DNA of 64,000 bases from the human T2T-CHM13v2.0 reference genome, Homo sapiens, in assembly GCF_009914755.1 (NCBI RefSeq), contig NC_060947.1. One strand, 5' to 3'. Under the pieces are notes generated by a model. That model saw only the letters and a program-made list of their open reading frames with translations, made no database searches and was not told the DNA's origin. The position numbers and the translations under genes were made by a program. Shown piece by piece: positions 18,747 to 53,748 of the stretch. Numbering within the stretch: the stretch's first letter is position 1; each line of letters starts with the position of its first letter.

Positions 18747-19107
<361 letters not shown>

Positions 19108-27702: not shown

Positions 27703-30700
27703 CCCACCCAGGCATGTCATGCCTAATCATATCCTAGGTCAACAGTATGCTTGAGTACTTCACTCCTTCCAATTCCTACTTCCGTTAGAATCTCCTCCAC
27801 CATACACCTGCTACACAGTCCTCCATAGGCTGACTTTTCCCTCCCCTCATGCAACTCATGTCATGACTGAATCGAGGTGTCAACCAATCTGTACCCATGT
27901 ACATCCAGTCATGTCCTCTGCAAGAATGTTTGCAGCCTCAACTAATGCAAAATTTCTAGACTCTTACCATAGGCTAGCTGCATTCTCCACCCACACCTAT
28001 CTCAACACATAACCTGTTGAGATCTCCCCAGGGTGGCTGTACTATCCACCCATGTTCATTCTTTCAAGTTCTCCTCAAAGCTGAGTGCTTTTTTTCTCCC
28101 ACTCACCTCCTGCCAGTTCCTCCTCCAGGATCACTGTAGCCTCCACACACAATCTTCCTGTTGCTGCATACACTATTAGCTGATTGTTTACTCCAACAAC
28201 ATATAAAATACAGTCATGCTTTAGGCATGTCCTTCCACACATGCACCTTTGAAAGATACCTCCAGTAAGGCTGGAAGCTATCTCAGCCTACATTACTCAT
28301 AATATGATGTCTAGATAGCTAGCTGCAAAATACACAAATACACCTCCTTCTAAGTCCTCCCCTAGGCTGAATGCTCCCTCCACCCATGCACTTCTTGACA
28401 GCATTTTTTAAGCATAGTTCCTTCCTTTACTCAAGTTCTTCCTGCTAAAATCCTCCCTTAAAGTAGAAACTCCCTCCACCCATGCACTTCCTGGTGAACT
28501 TACTCTAGGGATGAAGCTGTTTTCACCCAAGCACATCTTGCTGTATACTCTCCTAGGCTGGCTACAACCTATGCCCATGCAACTCCTGCTGGGGCCTGCC
28601 TTAGGTTGGATGGTATCAGTTTCTATGGAATTCCTGCTGTGATCTCCACAAGGGTGGCTTCAGTCACAACAGATGCACTCCTGACAGATGCACTCCATAC
28701 TGGCTGTACCCTCCACCTTTGTTTCTGCTGAGTACTACTCTAGGCTGGATGCTCCTTCCACCTATTTACTTGATACCAGGTTCACACATGGGCTCTCTAA
28801 ACCCTGCAGCAGTGCTCCATCTACTATGTGTTCCCATGCATTAGCTGCCAGTGCTTCCGTTTGGCTGAATTCTCCCTTCTCTCATGCACCCCATACTGAT
28901 CATATTTTAGTCCTAAGACCTTCTGCTCCCAAAAGACCTTGCTGTGTCCTCTCCTAGGCTGGCTGCAGCCTGAATCCTTGCAACTCTGCCATGTACTAGC
29001 TTTGACTAAGTACACATCTGAGTGCAGATGGCTGAGGCACTATCTCTGAGTCCTCTCCTAAACTTGGTTCAGCCTCCACCCCATGGACTTTCTGAATGAA
29101 TCTTCCCTTGACTCTCTTCTCCCTCCGCCATGAACTTATTGCTGAGTCCTCTCTTAGGTTGTCTTCAACCTGAACCCATGGTCACCTGCTAGGACTCCCC
29201 AAGGGTATATATTCCCTGCCAAATCTTCACATAGACTGGTTCTTCCGCCTATTTCATGCACTTCCTTTCAATACTCTTCTAGGCTAGCTACACTTTGAAA
29301 CCTTGTATCATCTGTCATTCCTTCACCTAGACAGACTAAATTATCTTTGATGCATCTCTCTCTTACTGTATCTTCACTTAGGTCGAATAAACTCTCACCC
29401 CTGAACTTCCTGTCATATTTGCCACTAGGTTGGATGCTGTCTACTCATGTACTACATTCTGAGCTGACCCATGTGCTTCCTGATGTGTCCACTCATGTTC
29501 TTGTTATTCCAATGCACTCATGAACCTCTTTTCATGTACCCCTTAGGGTGGTCGCATTCTTTACCCATTCGTCTTCTGTCAGGTTATTCCCTAGGCTGAC
29601 AGCACTCTGCACTCATGTACTTCTTGGCATGTACTCCCTTTATATGGATGCATCTGCACCCAAGTATCACCTGCTGAGTCCTCCAGGATGAGTATGCCTT
29701 CTAGGCATTTACTTCTTCCCAGATCCTCCCCCAGGCTGCTTGCAACTTCCATTGAGGACCTTAATGCTGGTTTAAGTTGGTTTTTGCCTTCTGCCACGAA
29801 CCTTCTGCTGATACCTTCCCTAAGACTGGAAGCTCCCTCAGCCCACGACTCTCCTACCATGAACTTCCCTATTCTGACAGCACATTATAAACATACACAC
29901 CCTATTGAGACCTCCCCTAAGCCTGATGCACCCTCCACCCAGGCACTACCCTCAGTTTGATGCACTCTCCACCCAGGCACTATCCTCTAAGTTGTTTGCT
30001 TCCAAAACGTATGCACCTCTGCTAAATCCTCCCTTATTCTGCATGTCCCTTCATTCACCCATGCAACCTCTACTGATTCCTTCCCTTGGTTAGCTGCTTC
30101 TTCCATACAATTACTATTTTACTATTTGATGGACCTTCTCCTAGGCTCACTGCACCCTCATCCTTCCTACCTCCTGTCAAGTTCTTCCTTCATCTGGAAG
30201 CTCTCTCCACCCAGGAACCTTCAGCCATATCCTCCCTTAGTGTTGCTGCAAATATCATGCATTAATTTCCTACAAGTCCTCCCTTAGGAAAGATATTCCT
30301 TTCAATTATGCACGTACTACTGAGTCCTCCTATAAATTGAAGGTAACCTTCAACTTTGCACCTTCTCCAAAAACCTATCCTAGGCTGCCTGGTCTCTCCA
30401 CCCTTTTATTTCTTGTCAGGTTCTTCCCAAGACTGGCTGCATATTGCATGAAGGCACATTCTGTTATGTCCTTCCCTAGGCTAGCTGCACCTTGATTCCA
30501 TGCACCCACTATTACATCCAACCCTAAGCTAACTGGATCTTCTCTAATGCACTTTGTCTGAAGTTCCCCTATACTACTTGTACTGTGTAACTCTGCACCT
30601 CCTGCAATGTTCTCCCCTAGGCTGGATGCATCTTCTATTATGAATTATCTGCCAAGTGCTTCCCTAGGATAGATTTTCCTCCTGTCCATACACTTCCTTA

Positions 30701-32073
30701 TGGATTGTCCCTTAGGCTCACTACACGCTCTACCCATGCAACTCCCGCCAAGTTCTCCATTAATCTGGATGTTCCCTTCACCAATGCACTTCATGTCATA
30801 TCATCGCAGGCTGGCTGCAACCTCCACTCATGTATGTTTTGTAGTTTTTCCTCTGGGCAGGATGTCCCTCCAGCTATACATATACTGCTGGGTGTCTCCC
30901 AAGCCTGGTTGCACAATCCACCTTTTCTCCCCTAGCCTGGCTGTGTTCTACAACCAAGCACTTTCAATTGTGTCATCATGTTACCTGGCTGAATCCTACC
31001 CCAACTCACATCCTAATATGTACTCACATAGGCTTCCAGCAATCTGCACCCATATACCAACTGCTCTGACTCATCTTGGTTGAATGATCCCTCCTCCCAT
31101 GTACTTCTTGTTGGTCCTCTTCTAGGTCTGTTTCCACCTATGCACATCCCAGTTGGTCTTCCCTTAGGATGGATGAATCCTCTTCCATGCAACTCCTGTG
31201 TGAACCTCCACCAGGGTTATTAAACTTTCTGCCAGTGAACTTCCTGCTAAATCTTCCAGTAAGCTGACTGTACCTTCCAACATCGAATCTTCCTCCAAGC
31301 TCTCTATTAGGCTGACAATTCTTCCCACTTATTCACTTCCTACTATGTCTTTCCCTTGGCTCACTATGCCTTGCACCAATGCATCATTCCCAACGAACTC
31401 CCCAAGGATGGTTGCACCCTGTACCCATGCTCCACCTGCCAGTTCTCCTCTTTGACTGAATATGCCTTCCCAATGTTCACCTTCTTCCAGTCCAATTCTA
31501 GGTCTAAGGCTTTCTCCACCTGCACTTCTTGCTTGGTCCTTATCTAGACTGGCTGCACTCTCCACCATATACCTATTGCCACAACTTCACTTAGGCTAGA
31601 TACTCCTTACTCCCATCTACTTCCTTTAGGGACATCATGGGCTGGATGCTTTCTCCTTCCATACATTTCATTTTTATCATCTGCTAGGCTGGTTGTACCT
31701 TCCAACCATATCTCTCCTGCCATATCATCCCCTAGGTTGGATTACCTATATCCACGAACTACCTAATGGGTCCTCCTCTGAGCTTTGAGGACCATTAATT
31801 CATGTAATTTCTCCCATTTCTATCCCCCTAGACTAGCTGTACACCCCACCAATGTGCTCCTTGTAACCATCTGTAGGCTGGCTGCACACTGTGTCCAGGC
31901 ACCACCAACCAGGACTTCCCCTGCTGTGAATGTTTTTTTAACCATGAACCCCTTGCCAATCCTTCCATAGGTTGCATGTTCCTTCTAACCATGTAATTCT
32001 TGCCACACTGTCCTCTTGAATGACTATTTTTCTTTTCAACTTTTTATCGTATGTTGAGCCCCTGCCCTCCCCA

Positions 32074-32075
<2 letters not shown>

Positions 32076-32119
<44 letters not shown>
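32076..32119. repeat. (CA)n microsatellite
   Basis: Directly visible. Confidence 0.97.
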
Positions 32120-32122
<3 letters not shown>

Positions 32123-33288
32123 GTAGCATCCCTACCAAGCCATGTACTTCCTGTCAAATTATCTGCCAGGTTCACTGTACCCTCCACCCATGCACTTCTT
32201 GCCATAACTTCCCTTTCTCTACCTCAAACTTCCACTGATGCATTTCCTGTTATTCTTCCCTTAGGTAATATTCTACTGCCACCTATGAACGTATTGCTGG
32301 GTTCTCCCTTAGATTGGATGTACACTACAGCTTTGCACATCCTGTTGAGACCTCCTGTAGCCTGGATGCTCTCTCGAAAAACAACAAACAAACAAATAAA
32401 ACAAACAAAAAAAACACTTAAAGACAGGTCCCATCAGAGCCTGATTGCATCCTCCACCAATGCACATCCTAATATTCCCCCCATGGACTGAAGGAACCAG
32501 TTCATCCATGCACCATCCACACATGAAGGGAGGCAGAAACCTCCTACCATGCACCATCTACTAGGATTCAACTTGGATCAATACTTTCTTCTACCATATG
32601 CACACTCTCCTTTACCCTATAGGCCTGATGCATTTTCCATGAATTCTCAGGATGGTTGTCTCCTGAAAAATGCACTAGTTGCTGGGTTTTCTTCTGGAAT
32701 GAATGGTCCTCCTCCTATGCACCACCCATCAGGGTCTTATCTAATATAAATGTAACTCTCACCTACGCACCTCTGCAAAATTATCTTCAAGGCTAGATGG
32801 TCTCTTCACCATGTATTTTCTGCTGTATCCTCCACTAGGCAGGATCCTCCCTTAGACTTCTTCATGATTGAACCTCCTGCTCAGTCCTACAATAGGGTGG
32901 CTGTTCCTTTCACACATCCACTCCCTGCAGGATCCTCCCCAAGGCTTGCTGCAACTTCAATCCACATACATACTGCCAAGCCTTCTCCTAGTCTGGAGGC
33001 TCCTTACACCCAGTCACTTTCAAACATAACCTTCTTTAATGCGCTTCAACCTCCACACACGTATCACCAGTGCATCTCTCCCTGGAAATAATACCCCTTC
33101 TACTTCAGCACATACTTCTGAGTCCCTGTCTAGTTTGAATGTTACCTCTGCCTTTGCACACTCTGCTGAGTCCTTCCCTAGTCTGGTTGATTCTTCAAAC
33201 TTTGCACTTCCTTCCAGGTGCTCCTAAAGACTGGCAGCACTCTGCAATAATGCAAGTCCTATTATATCATCCCCTAGGCTGGTTTTAA

Positions 33289-33810
<522 letters not shown>

Positions 33811-34815
33811 GAGCCTCTGTCTTATCTTCCTAGGCTAGCTTCATTCTCCACCCATGCACCTATTGTTAGGCCTACCTCAATCTGCACTCATGCATCTTCT
33901 GCAATATCCTGACCTCAGATGGTTGGCCCATGCACTCATATGTCACTTGTCAATTTTTCATCTTGGCCAGATAGACCTTCTTTCCATCTACCTTCTGCAG
34001 GTCCTATTCTAGGCCTGAGGGTCTCTTGACTCATGCACTTCTTGCAGAGTTCTTCTCTTAGTTGGCTTCATTGTGAACCCATGAATCTCCTGCCATTTTA
34101 TCCCTATGAAAGTTATACTCTGCCCATGGATCTACTGCTAACTGTCTAGCCTAGCTGCATTCTGAAATATTGCACATCCTGCTAAGTTCTCCCTCTCATA
34201 CCTGTATCCACCATCCATATACCTTCTGCTGCATTCTCTTCTAGGTTGGATAAGTCTTTAATATGTTTATTTCCTGCTGGCCACTTCCCTAGACTGGTTT
34301 GCAACTTCCACACATCTTGTTTGTCAGTTACTCTATTAAGCTCTTCATTCTCTCCAAACATGTACCACCTGCAGATTCTTCCTCTATGGTTCATTGCTTC
34401 CTTCACCCATGTACCCTCTGCTGAGCATCTCTTAAATGAAAATTCCATCTATCCATAAAACTTCCTGCTGTGTTGTCTCTCCAGACTTGTTATAGCACAC
34501 ATTCATGCACTTAACTATCATGTATTCCCCTATGCTAACTGCACCCCACCCTCTGGCACCTCTTGCCATATTGTTTCCTTGAAAGTCTACAACATCCATT
34601 CATTAACCTCCTGCTATGTCCTCCCCTAGGATAGCTGTGCCATTCAAGCATATATTTCCTGCTGATCCTTTTCTATACTGTCTGCAATCTTCACATAAGA
34701 CCTACCTGCTGGGCTCTATATTAAAGCTTGTTGTTTCTTCCAACCACTCACCACCTGTATGTGGTGCTTTAGGCTGGATGACTTCTCCACCCATGCAAGT
34801 TCTGTCAGTATTTCC

Positions 34816-35418
34816 TGTTGGGGCTCAGAAAATGACAACCTAAAATATGGGCCTCAGAAGTAACAGTTTCTCTCTGACCTTCTCCTGCTGTCCTGTATCT
34901 TGTCCCTCATTCTCTCCTGAGGCCAGCCATAGAAACTAGAATTTCTCTTCCTCAAGGCAGAATCATTTTTCCTCCAAAGCAGCCATAAGGCCTAATATAT
35001 TACTCTAACTTTCCCCTTCTTTTTTATGTAAGAAATAGCTATAAAGTAATTCTCTGACCAACCTCTCTAATTGTAGGTCATAAGACCCTCATTCCAGAAA
35101 GGATCTTACCCCATACCTGAGAGGAAGGAAGGCTGCAAGGAGTGGCCAGGAAGAATCTGAACACACAGTCCTTGCTGAGTTTTCCCACTCAATCTGTTAG
35201 CATTAGCTCATACCCCAGTCGAAGTTCTATATGGCTATCTATTATTCATTGAAACCAAAGCATAAAAATGGACAGCTCCCCCTGTATCTTTGGGTCTTCA
35301 TTATGAAGGCTTTTATGTCATGAAAAACTATTATCGAATAAATTGTTATCATTTTCTCTTCTTAACTTGCTTTTGTTATAGGGATGTCAGCCATTCTTCC
35401 TTCTGATGGGGAGGAAAG
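34816..35418 (+). mobile_element. ERV1 LTR (MER39/MER34-like)
   Basis: Starts TGTTGGGGCTCAGAAAATGACAACCTAAAATATGG; AATAAA at ~35337; interrupts the array periodicity. Confidence 0.7.
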
Positions 35419-38400
35419 TTGCAGCATGTTGGCAGCAGACTACATACATACACCACATGCTGTTTTCTCCCTTATGCTGGATGTTACTGCCAGGTTCACC
35501 TATGCGTATCCTGTCTGTGCCTCTCTAAGTCTGGCTGCCCCCAGAACAAATGCACCACCTATTACCTCCCCCATAGGCTAGCCACAACCTCCAAACATGC
35601 AAGAGTTGCCTATTCTCCACAAGACCAACTAGAGCCTCCATCCATGCATCTCTTGTGTTCCTCCTACATTACGCACCCATGCACTTCTTGGCTGCATTAG
35701 GCCCCCATGTATTTTTTAGCAACGTCTACCTACAGGCTGGATCCCTTCTCCATTTATTTACTTTCTGTTGGGTTCTCTCCTAAGGTGGCAGCCTACACTC
35801 TGCATCCATGTTCTTCTTGCCAGGTCTCATCTTGGCTGAATGCTCTCTCCTCCCATTAATCTTTTTCCTATACTCCCCTAGGCCTGATGATTGCTCCACC
35901 CATGTTTTATTGCAGGTCCTTCTATAGGATGGCTACACCTTCCACCCATGCATTCATGCTCAGGCTTCACCTAGGCTAGATACGGCTTCATCCATATTCA
36001 ACTTATCTAGCCTTTCCCTAGGCTGAATGCTGTCTCCACCCATGTACCATCTGCCAATTCTTTCTCTACGCGAGATTCTCTCTACACACATATACCTCAT
36101 GCCTTCTTTGGACTAGCTTCAACCCCTAGCCATGCATCTCTTATGGTTCTCACCCTAGGCAGGTTTCTGCCTCCATGTATGCATGTCTTTCTGGGTTCTC
36201 CCCTAAGCTGGCTATACACTTCATCTTTTCCCCTCTTTCTTAGACCTCTCCTAGCCTGGATGCCCACTCCATCCATGCACTTCACATACAATCCTGAGAG
36301 CCTGGTTGCACCTTGCATCAATGTGCATTGTAACATGTACATCTAGAAGCTGGCTACATTACCATTTTTTTAACCTGATAACACTCCCTTTGGCTGAAAG
36401 TTCCTTCTTCCTTTTCACATTCTGCCTGACCTCTAACAGACCTGATGCTGTCCTTGCCCATGCTCTTCTTGCACAGTCCTTCTATGGGTTGGCTCTACCT
36501 TGCAGCATGCATTTTCTGCTGGGACCTCCTATAGTTTACATGCTCCTTACTACATTCCATGCACATCCTAAGGAGTACCCGCATTTGCTAGATGCTCCAT
36601 CCACCAATGCACTTTTTGCTGATCCTCCTTTGGAATGGCTGAAATTTAAAAATATACATATTTTGCCATGCTTTCCCCTAGGTAACCTGAATCATACAGC
36701 CATGAATCTGCTGCCAAATACTCATTCAGGCTTCTGCACCCTGTACCCATGCACTTCTCCTGTATTTTACCTAAACTGGCAGCACCTTCCAACCATGTAC
36801 CAATGGCTTATCCTCCATAAGTCTGAGTGTTCTTTCTGCAGATCCTCCCCTATGGCTGTAAGCTCCCTCAACCCATAACCCTCATATAATGAACTCCCCT
36901 AGGCTGGCTGCACACTGCACATATACTCCTCCTGACAAGTACTCCTGTAGGCTGCTACTACCTTTATGTATGCACTTCCTGCCAAGTACTTCTTTAGTCT
37001 GCTTGATTCCTCCATCAATGAACATCCTGTCATTTTCTACATGAGGCCATTGTCACCCTGCACCCATGTATCTTGCATTTTGTTCTCCCATAGCCTGGCT
37101 ATTCCCTGCACCCATGCACCTTTTGCTAGGTATATCTTGACTGAATGCTTACTTGTCTTATGAATTTCCTGTCATTCATGTTCTAGGCCTGAAGTTTCTC
37201 CACCCATGCATTTCTTCCAGGCTCTGCCTCTAGATTGGTTGCACACTCCGTTCATTTAAGTTACACTGGAGCCTTTCCTATGTTCAGTGTTTCTTGTCCC
37301 CATACTTATCCTGCAGAGACTTTCCTAAGCTGGGTGCTTTCTCCTCCATGTATTATAGTTCTGCTGAACCATTTCTGCATGATTTCTCCTGTGCAGTATT
37401 ATCTCCAAGCTATGTACAAAACATTTGGCTCTTTCTTAGACTGGCCATATATTCCACCTATACATAACCTGAATTAACCGGCTACTTGGCCAGTTACAGT
37501 TGGCTGGCTACAAGGGCAATTCCTGCCATTCCTTCCCTAGGCAAGATGCACCTTCCACCAATGCAAGACTTTCCAGAACCTGACCTAGTCTGGATTGTCT
37601 CTACACCCACGCAATTCCTTCTGGATTCTCCCTTTAACTAGCTGCATGCTCTACCCATGAACCTCCTGCTGAGCCTTCACCTAGACTGGGTGCTCCCTGC
37701 ACCCATGAACTTCCTGCCATAAGCTGATTCTACCCTCATCTTTACATCTCCTGCATAGTCTTCCGTTAGTTTGACTGCTCCTTCTACCCTTGCACTTTTG
37801 GTTGAATCCTTTCCTAAGTTAATGGCACCCCACATCAATGTACCTCCTACTATGTCTACACCTAGCCTGACTGCCCCACTGAATAATGCACCACCTACAG
37901 AGGCCTCTGGTAGGCTGGCTGTACCCTGTAGTTCTGCAACTTCTATCATATCCTTCCTTAGGCTGCATGCAACCATCAATCATGCACAACCTGACGAATA
38001 ATTATCTCATCTAGATATTCTCTTCACTAGTTTACTTCTTACTAAATTTTCCCCTAAATTCCATTCACCCTTGTTTTGAACATCTGGCCAAGTCTTCCCC
38101 TAGTCTGGATGCTCCTTACACCCAAGAATCTCCAGCTGTATCCTCCGTTAGGAAGCATGAAATCTCCAACCATGCATCTCCTGCAGATTCTTCCCTAGGC
38201 AGGATACTATTTCCACTTATGTATATGTTGCGGGGTCCTCTTCTAGACTAGGTGTAACCTCCACTTTTCCACCTTCTACTGGGACCTATCATAGGCTGGC
38301 TGCTCTCTCCACTTATGAACTTTCTACTGTGTGCCCCCTGAGGCTAGCTGCTCCCTTTTCCTAGAAATCTGCTAAACCTCTCCTTGGCTGAATGCCCCCT

Positions 38401-41400
38401 ATGCCCATGAAACTTTTCCAGTCCTCTTCTAAGCTTGATATTTCTCTATACATGCACTTCTTTCAAATTACATCTAGGTTGTCTGCTCATTACACACATA
38501 CACCTCCTGCCAAGATCCCCTATGCTACATTCTCCCTAAACTCATGCACTTTCAGCCATATTGCCCCAGAGACTGGCTTCAACCAATATGCACTTATGTT
38601 TTGTGGATCCTTCCCTAGGCAGGATATTACCTCTACCTACACACATATTGTTAGGTCCTCCTCTAGGTTGGATGTAACCTCCACTTTTGCAGCTCTTTCT
38701 GAGACCCCACATAGGATGGCAGCTCTTTCCATCCATACAATGCCTATTAGGTCCTGCCAGAGCTTTGCTGCACCTTACACACATATGCCATATACTAGAT
38801 CTCCTTTTGTTAAATTCAATCTATTTTTATGCACCTCCTGTCAGTCCTCTTCTAGGCTTGATGGTTTCTCCCTCAAATTTACTTCTTGCAAGGTTCTTCT
38901 TTGGGATGGTTGCACTCTCCTTCTATGCAGTTCATGCCAGAGTCACCCATAGACTAGATACTCCCTTTTCCTGTACCCAGCTGAGTCTTTCTCTAGGGCA
39001 AATATTCCCTCCACCCATGCAGTGCTGCTGATTAGAAACTGGATGAAAGTTGCATATATGAAACTTCTTGTCATATTCTACCCTGGGAAGGATGCACCCT
39101 CCTCCCATGCACCATCTACTGAATCCTCTATGCTAGATTCTTTTTTCACCCTTGTACTTCATGCCCCATATTCCCTTGAGCTGGATGCAACATTCACCCA
39201 TGCATCTTCCACTGAACTTATTTTAAGGAGGTTTCTGCCTCTATCTATGTATGTATTTCTGGATCCTCTATTCACCGTATACTCCAACTTTGCACATCCT
39301 TCTGGACCCCTCCTAGCTTGAGTATCCCCTCTAAACATGAATTTCCAGCAGGTTCCTCCCATAGCCTGCTTTAACCCTGGATCTCTGCACTTTATATTAT
39401 GGCCATATGTAGACTGCACTCCCCTAAGCTGGCTTCACCTTGCACCTCTGCACCTCCTAACATTTGCTCCCCTAGTTTTGATACAGCCTCATCCATGCAC
39501 CATCTGCCTAGACTAAATTATCCCTCCACCCGTATACTTTCTGCTGGGCTCACTGCACCCTTAACCCACTGACCTGCCAAATCCTTCCCTATTCTGGATG
39601 TTTCCTTGAGCCATGTACCTCCATCCATATTCTCCCTTAGGCTAGAGGCAACCATCACACATATGCATCTCCTGCCAGTCCTCTCCTAAGCAGGATACCC
39701 CCTTAACTAATGCAGGTGCTATCAGGTCCTCTTCTAGGCTGGAAGTAACCTCCATCTATGAGTCTCCTGTTAGTACTTTCTCTAGTCTGGCTTTTCTCAC
39801 CATCTATGAAGTTTCTGGAAGTACTAACGCTAGCCTGGTTTCTCTCCCACACCAAATTACATTCTAACATGTCCTCCTAACAGGTGGCTAAAACTTGCCT
39901 CCATTTTCCACTTGCTAGGACTCCTTTTGGCTGAATGCTCACTCTTCCTATACACATCATGAGCCTTTTCTAATAGGTCTGATGCTTTCTTTTTACATTA
40001 TCCTTTCTCCATGTTGGCTGCACTCTACACACCTGTAACTTCCGTTTCTATCCCTGGCAGGATGTCCCTTCTATTCATGAAAAACCTGTCAAGTCTTGCC
40101 AAGACTTGATTCTCTTTCACTCATTTCTTGCCAGATGCTCCCCTCAGTTGAAAGCAACATCCAACTGTGCACTTCCTGCTGTATTCTCCCCTAGATTGGA
40201 TATTTCTTCAAACTCTGCACTTCCTACCATATGCTCCTATTGGCTTGCTGCACCCTCCGTTCATGCATCTATACTGTGCCCTTCAATACCGTTGAAGATC
40301 CCTCCACTCATGTGATAGCTGCTTAGTCCTTCCCTAGGGTAACTTCACCTTGTATTCATGCAACAGCTATCAGATCTCACCTAAGCTGAATCCTCCCTCC
40401 TCCCGTGCTCCCATTTCTGATCCTCTTCTAGGCCTGATGATTTTTCCACTCGGAATTCTGAAAGAGACCTTCTCGAGGCTGGAAGAACCCTTCACTTTTG
40501 CAGTTCATGCCAGAGCCTAACCTATTGTACGTATTCTTTATTCCATGCTCATCTCACAGAATCCTCCCATATATTAGATATTCCCTCTACCTGCGCACTT
40601 CTGCTGATCCTCTCCTGTACTATGTGAAAGTTGCAACCATGAAACTCATGCCATATTCTCCTGTAGGATGGGTACAATTTCCATCCATGCACCTGATGAA
40701 TACTCTCATAGTCTAGATTTTTCCCTCTATCCATGAACCTCATGCCACATCTTTCTTTACTTTGGCAACAACCTCAACCCATGCAACTCCTGCAGCTCTT
40801 ACCCAAGGCAGTTTTCTTACTACACCAATGAACATATTTCTAGACCCTTCCTTAGGTTGACTGTACCCTCTGATTTTGCACCACCTTCTGAGACTTCTTC
40901 TAGTCTTGCTGCTCTATCCAGCTATGAATTTTTAGTAAGGTCCTACGAAGGATTAGCTGCACCCTGCATCAATGCACATCATAATATATGCTCTATGGGC
41001 TGGCTACAACCTGCTACCATTTTCTGCTGGCCAGGACTCCATTTAGCTGAAAGTTCCTTCTTCCCATTTATCTCATTTATTCTACCTTAGGTCTGTTGTT
41101 TTCTTTACCCATGCATTTCTTGCAGGGTCCTTTTCTAAGTGGCTGCATTCTACACCCATGCACTTCCTGCTACGATGTGTATAGGTGGGATGCTCATTGT
41201 CCCCATATACCTCCTGCCAAGTCTTCCCCCAGCTGAATGCTCCCTCCACCCATGCATTTCTTGCTGGCACTCTCCTAAGCTGGCTGAAGCTTGTATATAT
41301 GCATATCCAGTTTTGTCCTCCCATAGTTAGGCTAAACTTATCTTGCTTGTACCCTGCACTCACACACCTCCTACCATGCCCTTCCTCAGGCTTGTTGAAC

Positions 41401-44400
41401 ATTTCAACTATGAATTCAGCATCATATCCTTCAATAGGCAGGACGCCACCTTTACCCATGCATTTCTTGTGGGTCTTCCCATGGTCTGGCTGTATTCTGT
41501 ACCCATGGACCGCCTGTGATTTTTTCCCCTTAAACTAGATTCTCCCTCCACCTATACACTTGCTGATGAGTTCTCCCATAGGCTAGCTTTATTATGTACT
41601 CACGTATCAGCTTCCAGATCTTAATTGGCTTGTATACATCTCTTCTCATGTGATGTTTGTTATTTTTCTAGGCATAATGATTTTTCACTCATGAAATACT
41701 TGTCAAGTCTTGCACTAGGCTGGCTGCACACTAACACATTCAGCTCAACTATAACTAATATGCCCACACCTATGCTGGCTGCATCCTGTACCCAGGGACG
41801 TCCTTCTTTGTTATTTTACAGCCTGGCTTCACAGTCACGCCATGCACCTCTTACTGGGTCCTCATCTAAGAATGGCACACTCTTCACCCATGTACTTCCT
41901 TCCAAGTCCTCCCCTGAGATAAATGTACTCTTCATGCATGCACTTTCTGCCTAGTTCTCCCACAGGCTGATTGCACTCTGCATCCATCTCTATCTACTAT
42001 GCCTCCTCCTAGGCTGGATTCATCCTGCACCCACAAAACAATGGCCAGGTATGCCTTTTGGTTGAATACTTTTTTGCTGCCATGCATACACTACTAATCT
42101 TATTATAGGCCTGGGGCTTTCCTCAGCCATGAACTTCCTACTAAGTCCTCCCCTACAGTGGCTGTACTCTCAAAAATACACCTTCTGCCAGGGCTTTCTC
42201 TATGTTGGTTGCATGCTATACCCCTCCACCTTCAGCTATATTCTCTCTTAGGGTAAAAGAACTATCCAACCATGTACAACCTGCAGAGTCCTTTCATATG
42301 CTCTACTCTTCTTCCATTCATGTACCTTCTGCAGGATCATTCCCTAGGCTCACTGAAAATTCTACCCATACAACTCTTGCTGAGGCCTCCCATAAGCTGG
42401 ATATATCCTCCACACATTCATTTCCTTCCAGGTCCTCCCCTAGGTTGGCTGGAACCACCACAGCTGATTTGACTGCTGGGTTCTCTATCAAACTTTCCTT
42501 CAACTAGGCAGCACATGCGGAGTCTTGCTCTAGTCTGCATGACCCCTCTATTCATGTGCCTTCTGCAGATTCCTCCTCTAAAGCTGCAAGCTCGCTCAAT
42601 CCCTGTGCCTCATACCATGAACTCCTGCAGCTCTTACCCAAGTGTATATCTACACTTCCTGAACACTATAAGTATATACCGGCTGCCTTGTCCTCCCCTA
42701 AGCTAAATGCTTCCTCCACGTTTGCACTGAATCCCTGGTGGACCTTCTTTTGTGGTAGCTGCTTCCTTCACCCATGCACCTCTGCCAAATCCTCTGCTAG
42801 GCTGAACACTCCCTCCACTCATTCACTTACTGCCAGATTCTTCCCTAGCCTGGCTGTTTTCTCCATCCATGAACTATCTGCCGAGTCCTCCTTTAGGCTA
42901 GTAGAATCCTGTACCTTATATATCAGCCACTATATCTGCCCAGAGATTAAATGCACACTTTACAAATGCATCTTCTGCTGGAGCCTCCCCTAGCTAGATT
43001 TTTTTCCATCCAATCGTTTGCTGCCAGATCCTCTTCCTGGTTGATGGCACCCTCCACCTACACACCTCATGCCATATTCTCCCCTAAGCAGTATGTACCT
43101 TTTACCCTTGCACTACCTCTTGAATCCTCCCCTATGCTTACTACATCCTCCCTGAAAGTACCCATGCTGTGTTCGCCCATTGGATAGATGCTCTCCCTAC
43201 CTGTGCATCTCTGACTAGGTCTTATCCTAGCCTGACTACTTCATCCACCCAGATACCTCCTACTGAGTCCTTCCCTAGGCTAGATGCACCCTCCGCTCAT
43301 GCACGTCCTATGGGGTCCTCCAGGCTGGTAGATCCCTGCTTCCATATGCTTAATACTACATCTGCCCCTAGGCTAAATGCACACCCAATTAGTGCACCCC
43401 CTACAAGCAACTCTCTTAACTCCCTGTGTCCTCCCCCAAGCCGGACGACTACCATGAACTACCCTAAGTTGGATACACTCTCCACATATGCTCATTCTAT
43501 GATATCCTCCCCTAGTGTGGCTCTACTTCAACTTTGCACCTCCTATTGAATCCTCCTGTAGACTGACTACTCCCTCCCATGAACTACCTGCCAGCTCGTA
43601 CAGTAGGCTGACTGTACCCTGAACCAATGCACCTCTTACTATGGTCACTCCTGGACTGGTTGCAACCTAGACCCATGCACCTTCTTCATTGGTCTCCCCT
43701 AGGCTGGATGTATCTTCTACCACTGTACTACTTGATAAATCCTCCCCTACAATATATTCTTCTTCTTTCCATGAACTTCCTTCCAGATTGTCTCCTAGGG
43801 ATGTTGCTCCCTGCACCTCATGCTTCATCTCCCCATAGCCAGCTGCAATCTCCAAACACACATTTCCTGTACTTCTTCCCCTAGACAGAATTCTACCCCC
43901 ACCTGTGAATGTATTACTGGTCTTCCCCTAGGCTGGTTGTACCCTCCAACTTTTCACCTCCTGCTCGGACTTTCCCTTGCTTTGTTGCCCATTTAAACCA
44001 AGAACTTCCAGCAACATCAGCAGTGAATGTCTTAATATGTCCTAACATAGTCTGGCTTCAGTCTGACGCCCCACTGACTAAGACTTCATTTGGCTGAATG
44101 ATTCTTCCTCCAATGTACCTTCAGTTGATCATCTTCTGGGTCTGATGTGTTCCCCACCTATGCACTCCCTGCAAGGACTTTCTCTAGGCTAGCTGCCCCT
44201 TCCACGTGTGTACTTCATGTTCAAGCCTCTCCTAGCCTAATGTCCCTTATTTCCATAAACATTCTGCCTGGGCCTGCCCTTGAATGGATGATCTGTCCAA
44301 CCATGCAGTTCTTATTGATACTCTTCTAGGATGGCTGAAAATTTCAAACATGCAGATACAGCAATGATCTCCTCTAGGCTGACTGAAATGTCCACTTATG

Positions 44401-45765
44401 CACTTACTGCTAGATCCCTATTTGGGCTGCCTGAACCTGTATCTATGGACACCCCTATCCACCCATAGGCTTGTTACATCCTCCAAACATGCACTGCCAT
44501 ATCTTCCAATAGGCCGGCTGTGGCCTCTACTCATGCATCTCCTAAGTATCCTCCCTTCACTGGTTGTATTCTGCACCATGCACCTCCTGCAAGATCCTCC
44601 CTTAGTTCTGACACTTACTGCATCCAGGCACTTCTTTCAAGAGCTCCCCATTGTCTTAATGCTCCCTCCTCTCATGCCCCTTTTGTTGAGTCTTTCCTTA
44701 GTCTGGCTTCACACTGCCCACATGCACCATCTGCTAGGTTTCACATAGGCTGACTGCTCTCTCCCGCTATGCACATTCTGGTGGACTTCTTCTAAGACTG
44801 ATGCCTTTTCTTCTCACACAAATCTTGCCAAGTCCGCTCCTAGGCTGGCCACACCCAAACTCCATGAAACTGTTGCCAGAATCAATGACTGCACACTGTA
44901 TTTACGAACTTTCTGCTGAGCCCTCCTTTAATCTGGATGTGCCTTCTGTGCCTGAACCCCCTACTAAGTTCTCTTCTAGACTAGTTACACTCTTCACCCA
45001 TATATAGCGCCTACTGTGAACAATCCTAGGCTGGATGCATCCTATACCCACGCACCACCAGCCAGGTGTACCCTGTGAAGGAATGTTCCTTTCTCTCATA
45101 CATTTCCTGCTGATCCTACTCTAAGTCTAAGGCTTTCTCCACACACAAACTACCTGCTTGTTCCTCTTCTAGGATCGCTGTAGTTTGAAGCTATGAACTT
45201 CCTACTTTGTTTACCACTGGACTGGCTAAAACCCTGATCAGTACACCTTCTTCAAGGGATTTTCTAGGCTGGCTGCACTCTGTAGCCGTGTACCCCTTGC
45301 TATTTTTTTCCACTAGAATAGATCCATCCTTCAACGATGTACCACCCGTCAATCACTCTCTTACACTAGATTCTCCCCGACCCAAGCACACCTTGCCTGA
45401 TTGTCTCCTAGACTTGTTGTACTCTCTACTTATGCCCCTTATGCCTTGTTGTCCCTTAAGCTGGCTGAAAACCCCATCCATTTATTTCCTGCTTCTTACT
45501 CCCATGTACCTCCTGCCAATTATTTTCTTATACTGGCTTTGCACTCCACCCTTGTATTGTCTGCAAGGTCACCCACTTAGTTGATGCTTCTTCCTCCCAC
45601 TCACCTTCTACCTGTTTCTCCTCCTTTGTTATATGCTCCCTTCTCCCATGGGTGACCAAACAAGCCCTCCCCTTGGCTGCATTTTTCCTCTTCCCATGCA
45701 CCTTCTGCAGGGTCCACCCTTAGCCTGGATTCTCCATCCACCCATGCATTTTTCTGCCATGTATA

Positions 45766-46157
45766 TGGCATAATCACACAGTGAAACAATATAAGTCCAG
45801 AAAAAGAGTGAAGTATTGATAGAAGCAATGAAAAGAATGAACCTTGAAGACATGCTAAGCGAAAGAAGCAGACATAAAAGGTAACATACTGCATAATTTG
45901 ATTTGCATGAAATGTCCAGAATAAGCGAACCTATAGAGACAAAAAGTGGTTTTCAGAGAATGGGAGGAAGGGAAATGGTGTAGTGACTGCTTGATGGACA
46001 CAGGGTTTTTTGGGTGGTGTTTAAAATGTCACAGAGCTACATAGTGGTGATGGTTGTACAACATTCTGAATGTCCTTAATTCCACTGAATTGTATGTTTT
46101 AAAATGGTGAATTTTATGATATGTGGATTATATTCTAATTTAAAAAACAAACAAAAC
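45766..46157 (+). mobile_element. Old L1M (L1MB-like) 3' end fragment at the junction of the two arrays
   Basis: GAATGAACCTTGAAGACATGCTAAGCGAAAGAAGCAGAC...TAGTGGTGATGGTTGTACAAC...AAAATGGTGAATTTTATG followed by an A-rich tail. Confidence 0.8.
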
Positions 46158-46159
46158 GG

Positions 46160-48606
46160 CAAAAATGTGCGATGATATCACTGAACAAAGAATGTGAAAA
46201 GGCAAATAAAATGAAACATGAAATCAGTTCAGTTTGTAAGTCAAAAGGGATTATGAACAGAAAAATAGGAGCACCATACACACCATCATTACTCTAGAGA
46301 AGATATGAATGCCACAATGAAGAACAGCCTCATATCATCAGTGCAGTGCTGTAAGTGAACAAAAGATATGAAAGAGGCAAAAAGAAGGCACCATAAACCA
46401 TCCCTGAAGTAGAAACCAACTAGAAATGTGAATTGCAAAGGGAAGGATCCTAAAACCATTAGCGTGTTAGAGCAACTGGACAGTGGGTGTGACACGGCAA
46501 AAAAGAGAAGCACCACACCATAAGTACAGAAGAGAAACTGGATAGAGAAAGTGAGTGGCCAAAGAGAAAAAGAAATAACTGTGCTGAGGCTGTGGAAAAA
46601 GCAAATAGACAGATCCTACGTCGTTAGTTCACTAATGTAACTATACAGGAGATGTGACAGGGACAATCAGGAAGAGATCTGAACCATCAGTGCAGTGGCA
46701 TAAATGGTCAGCGTGTGTGACCAGGACAAATAAGAATGCTGCACCATGAGTGCAATGGTGTAAGTCAATATTCACCAAAGAGAGAGCACTTGACATTATC
46801 AGTGCACTAGTGAACAGGGCAGGGAATGTGAACATGAACATGTGAAGCAGGAGTGCAGTGCAGTCATAGAACTAGACAGGATATGTGAACAGAGAAATAG
46901 GAAGAACTTCATATCATCAGTGAGTGGAGGAAGCAGGCGGAGGATGTTAGGAAAAAGATGATCCTCTGGCCAAGGGATGTAAACAAGAAAAGAGGAGGAG
47001 CCTCCTGGCACTAGTGCAGGGGAATGAATAGACAAAGTTCATCATTGGGGATAAAAGGGTGATGCCAACTTCATCAGAGAAATGATATAACTTGGAAGAG
47101 AAGGGAAACATTGTAAAGAGTAGGAGTCCCACACCATACAGTCAGTGGTTTGATTGTTCTGGGGAAGTGAAAATAGTAAGGAGAAAGAGTCCTGAACTAT
47201 CAATACAGTGGCATAACATGGCTGAGACTATAAATAGACAAAGGGTAGCTCTACGGTATCAGTGTAGTGGTGTAAGTGGATAAGCTATGTGAAAAGAACA
47301 GAGATGAGAAAAGCCATATCATGAGTACAAGGGTATATGTTGTCAGAGGTAACCCTGCAAAGAAGAACTCTTGACTATTAGTACATTGATGTATCTGGGC
47401 AAAAGATAAAAACTTGCAAAGAGCAGCAGCTCCATCCTACCAGTGTAGTGTGAAAAATCGATAGAATATGGAATTGGAGAAGAGCATTCCCACATAGTCT
47501 GTGCAGTTGTAAAACTGGACAGAGTATGTGAACAAGGCCAAACAAAAGAGTCCCACCACAATAGTGCAGTGGTATAAGTGGGCCAGGTATGTGAACAAGG
47601 CAAGGAAGAGAACTTAGCTTTATCCATGCAGTGGATTAATTGGGCAAGAGATGTGAAAGGACAAATAGGAGTAGCTCTGAACCATAGGTATAGTGGTTTA
47701 ACTGTGAAGGAGATTTAAACAAAGGAAAAATAAGGTGCCCCACACCAGCATTAATGGTTAGGTAAATGAGAATGTGACAGGAATAGAACCAAGAAGTGGA
47801 GCCTGACAACATTAGCACAGTTGTTTAACAGCACAGGGTATGTGAACAAGAAAAACAGGTGAATTGCCATACCATCATGATAGTCTTGTTTAAGCTGGCG
47901 ATGTGAATTAGGCAAAGATAAGTCATACTGAAACATCAATGAAGCAGTATAATTTGGTGTAGAGTATGAAGCAGCAAAGAAGGGGAACCTCCCAGTGTAA
48001 GTCCAGTCCTATAACTTGGCAGAGGATCTGAATAGGCTGATAAGTAGGAACCTGTGGTCAGTATAGTAAGAAAACTAGAATTAAAGAAGAATTAAACTGA
48101 ATAAATAGCAATAGCCATGCAACCTTAAGGTACAAAGATACTAGGGTAGAGGGGATGTTAGCTGGGTAAAGTGTAAGATCCCCACACTATCGGTTGTATT
48201 ATCGAATTGGGCAGGATTGTAAATGGTGCAAATAGGAAAAAGTTGGCACCATCAGAGTAGTGGAGTAACTGGACAGAAGATACAAATGAAACAAAGGTAC
48301 GGGCTGGGCACGGTGGCTCACGCCTGTAATTCCAGCACTTTGGGAGGCCAAGGTGGGCGGAACACGAGGTTAGGAGATCAAGACCATCCTGGCTAACACG
48401 GTGAAACCCCGTCTCTACTGAAAAAATACAAAAAAATCAGCCCAGCATGGTGGCGGGTGCCTTTAATCCCAGCTACTCGAGAGGCAGAGGCAGGAGAATG
48501 GCGTGAATCTGGGAGGCGGAGCTTGCAGCGAGCCCAGATAGCGCCACTGCACTCCAGCCTGGGGGACAGAGCGAGACTCTGTCTCAAAAAAAGAAAAAGA
48601 AAGAAA

Positions 48607-48637
<31 letters not shown>

Positions 48638-51600
48638 GAAGGAAGGAAGGAAGGAAGGAAGGAAGGAAGGAAGGAAGGAAGGAAGGAAGGAAAAGAAAGA
48701 AAGGTACAGTGGTATAACTGGGCAAGGAATGTGAGAAAAGGCAAAGAGGTAGGGGAAGCTTGGTATAACTGGGAGGTGAATATGAATAGGACAAAGAAGA
48801 AGAAGCCCAATGTTCACTGAAGTGGAAGAACTGGGTGGGCAATATGAAGAGGGCAAAAGTAGCCCTACACCCTAAGTACAGCAGAGTAACTGGACAGGAG
48901 ATGTGAGCAAGACAATGAGGGGGACTGGTTACCCACCAGTGCATTGGTTCATCCTGGTAACGGATATGAATAGATCTGTGACGAGGAGACCTGTCTCATG
49001 AGTGCAGTGGAATAACAAAAAAGAGATTATGTATGAATAAGGCAAAGAGGAGAAATCATGGGCTATCAGTGCATTGGAGTATCTTGGAAGATGTGATTAG
49101 GAGAAGAAATGGATCCTTGCAGAATAAGTGTGCTGTTTAAGTGGGAAGAGTATGAGTATGGGGCAAAGAAAGGAACTCCACCCAATGCATACAGTGCTGT
49201 AAGGGAGAAGGGATGTAAACAAGGCAAAGAAGAGGAGCCCTGCCTCAGGAGTAGAGTCTCAGAACTTCAGAAAGTATGCGACTGGGAAAGAGAAGCCCCA
49301 TCCCTTCAGTCCAGTGAAGTAACTGGGTAGGGTATGTGCCCAGACTGAAGAGGAAGACCTTGGAAATCATCAATGCAGTAATGGCCGAATATGAACAGAG
49401 CAATGAGAGTACAACAGCATAACTGAACGAGGGATGTAAAAAAGGCCATGAAGACAAGGCCTGCTTCATCATTGCTGTGGTGTACTTGGTCGGGGGATGT
49501 AAAAAGGCAAAGAAAGGGGCCTCAAACCATCAGTTCATTAGAGCATCTGGACAGAGGATGTGAATGTGGCAAATAGTAGAAACACTGCCCCAAAAGTGCA
49601 GGCGTTTATCTAGATAGGGCATGTGGATGAGACAAAGAAGAAAAACCTGACACCAAATGCAGTGATGTAACTGAACAGGTAATGTGAAAATGCAAAGAGG
49701 TGGTTCCCCAAACCCTTAGAGAACCAGAGCAGCTGGGCAAGAGGAGAGGTGGTCTGGCCAATTAGTAGGAGCCCCACACCATCACTACAGTGGAGCAACT
49801 AGCCAGAGAATGTAGACAGGCAAAGAGGAAAAACCCTATGTCATCAGAGCAGTACAGTAACTGTACAACAATAGTGATCAGAAATGCAGGATGATATCTA
49901 ATCCATCAGTGCAGTGATATAACTGGAAAGTGGGTAAGAACAAAGCCAAGAGGAGAAGCTCTGCCCCATTAATACAATGGCATAGTTTAAGCGGCTTTCT
50001 GAAATGGCAGAAATGAGAAGCCCCAAATCGTATGGGTGCAGGAAGAAACCTGCATTATCAGTTGCTGAATGGGAGATGTGCACAGGAAGTGGGGAGAACC
50101 CTTATAGTGGTGACTCTGGACAAGGGACGTGATCACAGTTAAGAACAGGGACTCAGCACCACCAGTGTGATGATATAAATGGAAATGGATATGAACCGTA
50201 CAAGAGGAATGAACACCTCCCCCTTGCATAAGTACAGGGTACAGTGCAGAGCATGCTAACAGGGCCAAGATAACAAGCTCTGGACCATTAATGCTGTGGT
50301 ATAACTAGACAGGGTATATGATTGAGGCAAATAGAATAAGGTCTGCAACCATCAGTTTATCAGTGTAGTGGTACAAGTGTACACACAATGTGAATTAGAC
50401 AAAGAGGAGGATGAAGCATCATCTCTCAGTAGAAGAGAGTGGGAATGGAGCCCAGGGCACAGAGACATGAACAGGACATAGAAGAAGAGCCTTGACCAAT
50501 AACTTCAGTGGTATAACTTGTACAAGAATGTTAACAGGGCACAGAGGAGTAACCCCACAACATCAGTGCAGAGGTGTAACTGGACCAGGTATGTGAACAG
50601 GTCAAAGAAGAGCATTCTCACAGTGTCAGTGTAATGGTGTCATTGAGAAGAGAATTCTAATAAGGTAAAGAGAAGTATCCCTGCCCTATCAATGTGCTGG
50701 TGTCACCATCATAACTAGGCAGCAGATGTTGTCTGTGCAAAGAATAGCAGCCCTGCATTAAAATTGTAATAGTGTAACTACATAGGGGATGTGAATAGGA
50801 CAAAGAGGATGAGGTTTCACTCATGAGTACAGTGATGTGCCTGGTCTGGAATGTGAACATGGCAAATAGAAAAAAGTCCCATGCCCTTGGTATCATGGTG
50901 TAACTAAACTAGAAATTTGAACAGGAAAAAGAGGGTGACCCCTGATGCACAGATGGAACTGGATGTGGAATGTGAGAAAGGCAAAAAGGAGGAGGCCTAT
51001 CACAGAAGTGCAGTGGTGAAACTCCACAGGGGATGTCAACAGAGAAAACAGGAGAATCTTGATACCATTAGTACTGAGGAATAACTGGACAAAACATGTG
51101 ATTGGGGCAAAGAGAAGATGCCCCAAACCATCAATTCAATGCTGTATCTTGGCAGCATTATATGGATGGGGAAAAGAGAAAGAACACTACACAGTCAGCA
51201 CAGTGATTACATTGCAAGGTGTGCAGAACAAGAAGTTACATGCCCAAGGCACCAGCACCGTGTTGTAGCTCAGTTGTACCCGGATCAGCAATGTGAACAG
51301 GGTCAAGGAAAGCAGTATCATTGCTATGGTGTGAGTGCACAGTGGATCTGAATGAGCAAGTGGGGGGATCATCACATCATTATTACTGTGGTGTGCACAG
51401 ATAGAGCATGTGAGAGGGGCAAAGAGGAAGGCCATCATCCCTTCAGTGCAGTCATGTAACTGTGTACAGATCTTAACAGGGTAAAGAGGAGAATCCTGAC
51501 ACTGTCAGGGGACTCATTAAATGGAAATGGAAATGTAAGCTGCAAAAATGGGCAGCGCCACATTGTCTACACAGTTGTGTAAGTGAACAGAGTGTGAAGG

Positions 51601-52010
51601 GAGTAAATATATTCTCCCATCATCAGTGCATGCTGTGCTAGGCCAGAGGATGAAAACAGAGCAGAGATGAGCATATCCATGCTATCATTGCAATAATGTA
51701 ACCAGGGCAAAGAGGATGAGACCTGACTCATGAATGCAATGATGTAACTGCACAGGGGAAGTAAAAGGCCTGAAAAGGTAGAACCTGCACAACCACTACA
51801 GTTGAGTAACTGCACTGAAGCCAAGGATGAGGCAAACAGGAGAAGTGCAGAGCATCAGTGCTATGGTGTAACCTGGGAAAGGATGTGACAACGTAAAGAG
51901 GAGTAGCCCTCAAACATCATTGCAGGGGTCCAGTTTGACAGGGGATATTTACAGGCAAATAAGAGGGCCACCAACATTAGTGCAGTGGAGCAACCAGGCA
52001 GGGACCTAAT
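46160..52010 (+). repeat. Diverged 63-bp tandem array (consensus ~AACTGGACAGGGGATGTGAACAGGGCAAAGAGGAGGAGCCCCACACCATCAGTGCAGTGGTGT)
   Basis: TGTGAA anchors at 47527, 47590 and 47652; AA(C/G/T)TGG anchors at 47513, 47576 and 47638. The motif series continues across ~5.8 kb. Confidence 0.9.
48301..48699 (+). mobile_element. AluY-type SINE with a (GAAA)n(GGAA)n expanded tail
   Basis: GGCTGGGCACGGTGGCTCACGCCTGTAAT start; TSD AAAGGTAC at 48293-48300 and 48700-48707. Confidence 0.93.
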
Positions 52011-52414
52011 GCACTGCTGTGCCTGACTCAGCATTCCTCTCTTTATACTATTTGGGGGCAGCCCAAAGTGACTTTGACACAAGGCAGGGCAATCGCTTCT
52101 TGAGTCAATAAGCATTGCAGTGCTGCTCTACAATGCCCCAGGAAAATTACAAGTGTGGCTTCAAGATGCCATGATTTATAGTCACAATGTCATAAAACAT
52201 TTCATCTGAGAGCCTGGTCTGCTTTCCAGGGTGTGAGGTGACCTGCTGGACACTACCAAGATAGTGGAAAACCAATTCGCCTGCCATCCTGCTCAGAGCC
52301 TGTCTTGTGTTTCTCTGCTAATATATATCACTGAAAACTGTGAAAGCAGAGGTCCTAAATCTTCAGACATTGTAATAGTCTAAGATATATACTCTTGTAT
52401 AAATATGCACAATG

Positions 52415-52529
52415 GTTACACTAAATGGATGACTAAAGTGGGAACCAAGTCAATGACCCAAATCCAGCCCATAGTTACACTAATGGATGACTAAAGTGGG
52501 AACCAAGTCAATGACCCAAATCCAGCCCA
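52415..52529 (+). repeat. 59-bp direct tandem duplication
   Basis: GTTACACTAA(A)TGGATGACTAAAGTGGGAACCAAGTCAATGACCCAAATCCAGCCCA at 52415 and 52474. Confidence 0.93.
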
Positions 52530-53748
52530 GACCATAGTGACTAAATGTCATCATGGACTGTCCAGCGGCCTTGACAAATTGAGTTTCAACAGAAAAAAGA
52601 ATGGGTCACAAAACAACCTTTGCCACAACTGGTACCTTATTGACAGTTTCTATTGCTATGGCCAGGAAATCAATGGGCTGTGAACACTGAATGATCCTCT
52701 TACCCTTGGAAATGATCCCTGCAGGCCAACCTGCAGGATGTTAGAGGAATGGCTTGCAGGAACACACACCAATCCTGGCTGCTTCTCCTTCTGCTCTGGG
52801 AGCAGAGGGGCTGCCCTGGATTCAAGATTGTGGACCTGACATTGGAAAGAATCACATTGTTTACCACAGAGCCATCTATTTATCCAGCTGTCTTTCTCAT
52901 TGCATCACTGTGCTATGCTAAATGTGCCTAAGTTAAAAAAAAATTGAAAAAAATACGCTACATCAATGTTCATGGGTGCAAAGTCTAAACTTTTTAACAT
53001 ATATATCTGGGATGAGGGCATGGTGCTTATGAAAAAAGGACAGGAAGTAAGTTTAGAGAACAGAGTGGGGTAACCTTGAGGCATATAGTAGGGGTTCAGC
53101 AAGGCCACCATACACAGTGTGGTTTGTTCACTGCAAAAAGTGCCCAGTCATGGAGGTGTGGGGTTGCTAAAATCCAGCCCATATCCCCCTCTCCAACATC
53201 AACACCCCCTGCTGTGTCTGCAGGGTGGGGCACTTCTGTCTGAGTTCTCTTCTCACAAGGGGGAAACATTTTTTATAGAGTTTTATAGAGTGGGGTGGGA
53301 GCTTTTCCAGTTAATTTTCCTAAAGACAGCACATTTTCATTCCGAGGAACTATATTTTTCTCATTCATTTCCACAGAGGATAACCTTTTATTTCTTAAAA
53401 ACACTTCCTGCTGAGAGCCTTTCCTTTTTACAATGAAGCCAGCCACCTACTCACCCAGCCTGACAACAGAGAATGCTTTCTTTAATTCACACAAAGATGC
53501 CATGTAAGTTGCTGGTGACCTGGAGTCTGTGGCACCAAGGGGAATTCCTGATGCAAGACAGCTCATTCACTCTGGCCTGTACCAGACTAGTTAATAAACT
53601 GAGGCTGTTCTGGGATACCTACATGCTCTACAGGTCCTCACCACTGCCCCTGTCACCCTCACCCTTTCTCCAGAACCTAGTAACTACAGAGTTAGTGCCT
53701 CACACAGCTGGTGCCCTGAATCCAGCTCTACCCATTGGTCAGTGTTTG

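What the first reader, a model, noticed from the sequence alone, without database searches (positions are those of the whole stretch)
46160..52010. Second, unrelated ancient array with a 63-bp period
Seen: about 85 diverged monomers of ~AACTGGACAGGGGATGTGAACAGGGCAAAGAGGAGGAGCCCCACACCATCAGTGCAGTGGTGT (anchors 47527, 47590, 47652). The period is again a multiple of three (21 codons). Minus-strand ORFs repeatedly read YTTALM..SSSLPCSHPLSS or LHHCTDG.GLLLFA. I do not recognise it as a named satellite. Inference: it is an independent fossil minisatellite or coding repeat.
Basis: partly seen in the sequence, partly recalled or inferred. Interest (0 to 1): 0.75.

Follow-up and report, generated by a model that had tools for sequence, protein, structure and literature searches.

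The report
Fossil 63-bp satellite on human X
A 5.4-kb stretch of the human X chromosome consists of 89 worn head-to-tail copies of a 63-base unit that shows no sign of coding for protein and is likely the unannotated remnant of a satellite that expanded before placental mammals diversified and has decayed ever since.

Summary
Real and non-coding. Window 46160-52010 holds 89 monomers of a 63-bp unit: lag-63 identity 0.339 against 0.273±0.006 in shuffles, 69% identity to consensus, 55% pairwise. The monomers form a star: no neighbour, higher-order or subfamily signal. Decay looks neutral: G/C-to-A/T bias, one lost CpG, 65 of 128 indels are 1 bp, and dN/dS matches a neutral null in all six frames. 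Divergence (K2P 0.41) is about twice that of the adjacent L1-like fragment (0.19), which suggests a pre-eutherian-radiation age (inferred). The only other copy found is a truncated inverted paralog of about 17 monomers at chrX 34.62 Mb. It is unrelated to the neighbouring 48-bp array. Kinship with beta satellite is not supported. It fits none of the satellite tables I could read, but Dfam and other mammalian genomes were not searchable. Verdict: an apparently unnamed fossil satellite, probably without present function.

The parts
46160..48292 (+). 63-bp array, first part (about 35 monomers; purine-rich strand is +)
48293..48707 (+). Alu inserted into a monomer, with an 8-bp target-site duplication (48293-48300 and 48700-48707) and an AAAG/AAGG tail; AluY-like by recalled diagnostic bases
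   Evidence: (SRP-like hits); subfamily name recalled
48708..52010 (+). 63-bp array, second part (about 54 monomers)
50946..53748 (+). Segment duplicated in inverted orientation at chrX:34,619,098-34,621,827 (85.7% by blastn); carries the last ~17 monomers plus flank
45760..46160 (+). Dispersed repeat fragment (3219 first-look candidates in the genome) with an A-rich end, L1 3'-end-like (L1MB type by recall); separates the 48-bp and 63-bp arrays and serves as an internal clock
   Evidence: family name recalled
12200..45750 (+). Neighbouring 48-bp array (context only; unrelated unit; bounds approximate, from 1-kb bins)

Best explanation
The stretch is a tandem array of 89 diverged 63-bp monomers with no coding signature, most likely a fossil satellite that was amplified or last homogenised once, likely before the placental mammals radiated, and has decayed neutrally since. 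Shown: head-to-tail units, star-shaped relationships, a neutral-type mutation spectrum, and later Alu insertion and partial inverted duplication. Inferred steps: (1) one 56% G+C unit was multiplied by rolling-circle copying or unequal exchange into at least 89 near-identical copies; (2) homogenisation stopped everywhere at about the same time; (3) each copy then gathered its own substitutions and small indels, with germ-line methylation removing CpG, leaving 43% G+C; (4) an L1-like piece came to lie at its left edge, a segmental duplication carried the right end to 34.62 Mb, and an Alu inserted last. It most likely does nothing specific today.
For: Star shape: pairwise identity does not depend on distance (0.540 at lag 1, mean 0.546); its spread equals column-shuffled data (SD 0.065 vs 0.062±0.002); no lag from 1 to 30 shares excess derived alleles (max z 2.05, null 95% 2.87); no subfamily axis in 50 clean monomers of 89. 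Neutral spectrum: consensus G reads A in 24.5% and C reads T in 21.2% of sites, while A and T are kept at 78-80%; columns 42-43 show CA 30, TG 25, CG 0 (exclusion p=2e-9). dN/dS observed vs null in the six frames: 0.70/0.61, 0.83/0.83, 0.88/1.02, 0.69/0.73, 0.75/0.74, 1.05/1.05. No stem covariation in 6 predicted folds. Age: K2P 0.41 to consensus (0.40 without the CpG) against 0.19 for the adjacent L1-like piece vs a majority of 11 other copies. In the paralog, 236 of 1031 aligned sites are shared departures from consensus and 149 differ, so much of the decay preceded the duplication. The array part of the paralog pair is not better conserved than its flank (14.8% vs 8.3% different).
Against: Conservation differs among columns more than binomial chance allows (A columns p=2e-13), so some ancestral variation among units, context-dependent rates or weak constraint may exist; this would inflate the age. 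With all 89 monomers the top eigenvalue (3.43) exceeded the null 95% point (3.26); the excess vanished in clean monomers. One frame has slightly fewer stops than null (+1: 0.043 vs 0.054, 5% of permutations; one of six frames). The L1-like comparators were 11 of the best 40 scored hits, which biases their divergence down, and G+C-rich DNA decays faster, so the 2.2-fold ratio is probably an overestimate. No orthologue, expression or chromatin data were available.
Confidence: 0.8

Rival explanations
1. The array is the dead remnant of a repeat-protein exon (21-residue unit) that was functional in an early mammal or still is in other lineages.
For: Period is a multiple of three; 2 of 6 consensus frames are open; the region holds testis-type genes such as H2AL1Q (annotation; PMC9526256 passages). 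Long neutral decay could erase an older coding signal.
Against: About 2 open frames of 6 is the chance expectation for 21 codons (arithmetic). dN/dS equals the neutral null in all frames; 65 of 128 indels are 1 bp; paralog differences are even across codon positions (57/346, 43/341, 49/344). 12 of the 70 stop-to-stop frames listed were scanned against Pfam: none reached a curated cut-off; the longest gave 0 PDB matches.
Confidence: 0.06
2. The array is or was the repeat domain of a long non-coding RNA or a chromatin element (Xist/Rsx- or DXZ4-like in role), working through repeated protein-binding sites or hairpins.
For: Consensus folds slightly better than mononucleotide shuffles (z -1.9 to -2.7) and has a weak internal inverted repeat (score 14.9 vs control maximum 12.8 of 40); strong strand asymmetry (63% purine); column conservation is uneven.
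Against: No excess pairing or double changes in any of 6 predicted structures; no Rfam family at gathering score, the hits at E below 0.1 being Alu-derived; no annotated exon in the array (annotation supplied with the finding); array diverges at least as fast as neighbouring paralogous DNA.
Confidence: 0.06
3. The unit is a fragment of an old transposable element that was tandemly amplified on the spot, like the 89-bp MER20-derived array at 2q37.1.
For: Precedent in PMC2588610 (passage); the array begins directly after an L1-like end.
Against: Three consensus motifs with up to 3 mismatches gave 19 genome matches: 12 in the array or its paralog and 7 isolated (controls 0, 3, 0); all 7 isolated loci lack an array and score at most 16.9 bits. 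DNA searches found only self and paralog. A family of some hundreds of similar-aged copies should have shown up; a rare or more diverged one would not.
Confidence: 0.05
4. The unit is a distant relative of the 68-bp beta satellite.
For: It shares a 10-base word with a 68/69-bp-period repeat fetched from distal chr4q; one of four profile comparisons beat all 40 controls (18.7 vs maximum 15.2).
Against: The other three comparisons were reached by 3, 1 and 2 of 40 controls; an unrelated AT-rich 42-bp satellite scored as well (20.8); true relatives score 67-81. The 63-bp HMM scores the beta-type locus at 1.4 bits at best. Unit length differs.
Confidence: 0.03

Closest known systems
Diverged interstitial tandem arrays of the human genome (SATR1/2, CER, D20S16 class; names of SATR2 and D20S16 recalled; CER 48 bp and the 89-bp 2q37.1 array from PMC2588610)
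   Same: Head-to-tail units of tens of bases, kilobase-scale, non-coding, diverged monomers.
   Different: Far more decayed (55% pairwise; invisible to TRF), essentially single-locus, and not in the passages of that paper's tables that I saw (only Xp21 entry: a CCTTG array at Xp21.2).
Ape sex-chromosome satellites Ariel and Belinda (63 bp; PMC11168930 Table S23)
   Same: 63-bp period, on X.
   Different: They have 0 and 2 copies on CHM13 X, also occur on Y and are lineage-expanded; this array has 89 plus about 17 very old copies. Their sequences were not seen, so the comparison is by counts only.
Beta satellite (68-bp BSR)
   Same: Similar unit size and one shared 10-base word.
   Different: Profile similarity is at the level of an unrelated satellite; no HMM match.
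Neighbouring 48-bp array
   Same: Same locus, similar degree of decay (mean top-base frequency 0.59-0.65 vs 0.68), also unmasked.
   Different: Unrelated unit, 24-bp subperiod, far larger, pyrimidine-rich on +.

Membership tests
Satellite/minisatellite array (general class) | Head-to-tail repetition of a 10-100 bp unit over kilobases | tested here: met
   89 monomers, period 63
Satellite/minisatellite array (general class) | Ongoing homogenisation or higher-order repeats | tested here: not met
   55% pairwise identity, no lag or subfamily signal
Satellite/minisatellite array (general class) | Copy-number polymorphism (VNTR) | not testable with these tools
   one human genome only
Coding tandem repeat | Open frame across many units; indels in multiples of three | tested here: not met
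   longest array frame outside the Alu 123 codons; 20 of 128 indels are multiples of 3
Coding tandem repeat | dN/dS below neutral expectation | tested here: not met
   all six frames within the null
Beta satellite | 68-bp unit | tested here: not met
   63 bp; comparator locus shows 68/69
Beta satellite | Sequence homology to the beta consensus | tested here: inconclusive
   borderline profile score, no HMM hit, one comparator locus only
Ariel/Belinda 63-bp satellites | Copy number and X/Y distribution as tabulated | tested here: not met
   0 and 2 copies on CHM13 X
Ariel/Belinda 63-bp satellites | Sequence identity to their consensus | not testable with these tools
Transposon-derived tandem array | Unit has dispersed homologues in the genome | tested here: not met
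   within the stated sensitivity
Transposon-derived tandem array | Match to a Dfam/Repbase consensus | not testable with these tools
Structured lncRNA repeat (Xist A/Rsx type) | Conserved pairing with compensatory changes | tested here: not met
Structured lncRNA repeat (Xist A/Rsx type) | Transcription as part of a long RNA | not testable with these tools
   no expression data

The most novel reading that the evidence does not exclude
The 63-bp array and the adjoining 48-bp arrays (at least 65 kb, in both orientations) are the surviving block of a satellite-rich heterochromatin or centromere-like domain of a stem-eutherian chromosome, frozen at Xp21.1 and among the oldest readable satellite DNA in the human genome; its orthologues would let satellite birth and death be dated across all placental mammals.
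Probability: 0.15. Interest if true: 0.7.

Novelty: new member of a known kind. Interest (0 to 1): 0.33.

Why it matters
Satellites normally turn over too fast to be read after tens of millions of years (established knowledge). A frozen array of 89 independently decayed copies of one known ancestral sequence is a natural mutation-accumulation experiment for the X chromosome. It also shows that T2T repeat annotation still misses kilobases of very old tandem DNA: TRF does not see it and NCBI leaves it unmasked. No present-day function is indicated.

Tried and rejected
TRF did not detect the array. Relation to the 48-bp unit in either orientation, including the upstream inverted blocks: rejected. 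Internal sub-period in the 63-mer: none. Higher-order repeat: none. Coding signal: none; Pfam on 12 frames gave only sub-cut-off hits (best E 0.0028); PDB 0. Rfam over 45700-52500: 6 matches at E up to 5, none at gathering score. Seven isolated motif hits elsewhere in the genome: no arrays. A third copy of flank 53096-53176 at chrX 119.11 Mb has no array around it. Two of four loci fetched as beta-satellite comparators had no periodicity and were dropped; one was a 42-bp satellite used as a negative control. A genome-wide profile search was not possible, so dispersed single monomers could be missed. No ESM Atlas result and no earlier findings were obtained. Ten literature searches returned nothing that describes this array in the listings or in the passages read.
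Full report
Observation. A sliding autocorrelation of the window shows lag 48 from about 2 to 46 kb and lag 62/63 from 46 to 52 kb. With the Alu removed, lag-63 identity is 0.339 against 0.273±0.006 in 200 block shuffles, and no shuffle reaches more than 0.301 at any lag from 20 to 200. It cuts the stretch into 91 segments, 89 of them internal monomers, 69% identical to consensus (also 69% leave-one-out) and 54.6% to each other. An HMM trained on the first part alone finds 31 hits in the second part and 14 in the paralog. TRF misses the array.

Anatomy. The array runs from about 46160 to 52010 and is 63% purine on +. Its left neighbour (about 45760-46160) is a dispersed repeat with 3219 first-look candidates in the genome; I recall it as an L1MB-type 3' end. 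An Alu with an 8-bp target-site duplication sits inside one monomer. Left of the L1-like piece lies the 48-bp array, which continues upstream of the window and recurs inverted on both sides of H2AL1Q. The two units are unrelated: 47 of 60 and 31 of 60 shuffled profiles score as well, whereas true 48-bp relatives score 67-81 against control maxima of 14-23.

Other copies. DNA searches of the genome returned only the array itself and an inverted paralog at chrX:34,619,098-34,621,827 holding about 17 monomers (14 model hits). The same paralog matches window 11109-12401 and 54375-55701 but lacks both arrays in between. Three motifs with up to 3 mismatches gave 19 matches: 11 in the array, 1 in the paralog, 7 isolated (reversed-pattern controls 0, 3 and 0). 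All 7 isolated loci were scanned and hold no array. Twelve hits among about 106 known monomers is roughly 11% per monomer, so a same-consensus array of 30 units elsewhere would be missed about 3% of the time (my arithmetic); lone monomers would usually be missed.

Mode of evolution. Identity between monomers does not change with distance. Its spread equals that of column-shuffled data. No lag from 1 to 30 shows excess shared variants. A slight excess in the top eigenvalue with all 89 monomers disappears in the 50 cleanly aligned ones. This is a star: near-identical copies that then decayed independently. The spectrum is that of neutral decay, with G to A at 24.5%, C to T at 21.2%, one fully decayed CpG and perhaps a second, and G+C down from 35 of 63 in the consensus to 43%. 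Against a purely uniform picture, columns of the same base differ in conservation more than chance allows.

Coding test. Four of six consensus frames contain stops. Of 128 indel events 65 are single bases and 20 are multiples of three. dN/dS against the consensus lies within both neutral nulls in all six frames; only frame +1 has marginally fewer stops (5% of permutations, one of six tests). Paralog differences are even across codon positions. Twelve of the 70 stop-to-stop frames gave no Pfam match at cut-off, and the longest gave no PDB match. RNA test: the consensus folds weakly (z -1.9 to -2.7) but no predicted stem covaries, and Rfam gives nothing at gathering score.

Age. K2P distance to consensus is 0.41, or 0.40 without the CpG. 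The adjacent L1-like piece is 0.19 from a majority of 11 other copies, and the paralog pair differs by 0.168 in the array, about 0.08 per lineage. If the L1 is of L1MB type, which I recall as active around the eutherian radiation, the array is older than that radiation. This is an inference: the comparators are best hits, G+C-rich DNA decays faster, and ancestral variation among units would add apparent age. No orthologue could be examined.

Comparison with known repeats. Makova et al. 2024 (PMC11168930: passages, the repeat-methods section, and spreadsheet parts holding Tables S23 and S44) list two 63-bp satellites with 0 and 2 copies on CHM13 X and no other 63-bp entry; their 61-bp X repeat has 763 copies in CHM13 but 1 to 46 in other apes, so it is a recent expansion. 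The main supplementary PDF was too large to read and may hold consensus sequences. Hoyt et al. (10.1101/2021.07.12.451456: passages and section 5) give no coordinates in the text seen; their supplements were not available and could bear on the novelty claim. Warburton et al. 2008 (PMC2588610, passages) list no such array, but cover arrays above 10 kb found by TRF. Molaro et al. (10.1101/165936, passages) and Seal et al. (PMC9526256, passages) place H2A.L loci on the ancestral eutherian X; the passages seen mention no arrays. Ten searches gave no description of it. A comparison with a 68/69-bp repeat from distal chr4q, taken as beta satellite by period and recalled position, was borderline by profile and negative by HMM. 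Dfam could not be searched.

Verdict. A real, apparently unnamed, very old and essentially single-locus satellite fossil. Confidence in neutral fossil 0.8; interest 0.33; new member of a known kind.

Noticed in passing
window about -6900..45750, and -20000..-18300, -13600..-11000 (L036, L037): The 48-bp array (24-bp subperiod) extends upstream of the window and recurs in inverted orientation on both sides of H2AL1Q; a 27-base motif found it only at this locus (5 of 5 matches). Its upstream end was not reached.
   Followed up: partly
window 51700-53750 vs chrX 34.619-34.621 Mb: Identity between the inverted paralogs is patchy: 79-85% at 50900-51700, 85-98% at 51700-53750 (98% at 53100-53300), 85-91% at 54300-55700. 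Likely gene conversion between the arms, or local constraint.
   Followed up: partly
window 53096-53176: An 81-bp piece inside the best-conserved paralog stretch has a third copy at chrX:119,113,087-119,113,172 (81%); no Rfam match.
   Followed up: partly
window about 53750-54375: LTR-like insertion absent from the paralog, so younger than the duplication; MER41-like by recall; sub-threshold mir-4428 hit.
   Followed up: no
window 13193-13397 and 52415-52529: Recent near-perfect local duplications: 95 bp x 2.2 inside the 48-bp array and 58 bp x 2 in the flank.
   Followed up: no
L037, window about -16303..-15700: The H2AL1Q reading frame runs on into a long GAG/AAG-rich, glutamate/lysine-coding tract; PMC9526256 calls the frame intact although the annotation says pseudogene.
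   Followed up: no
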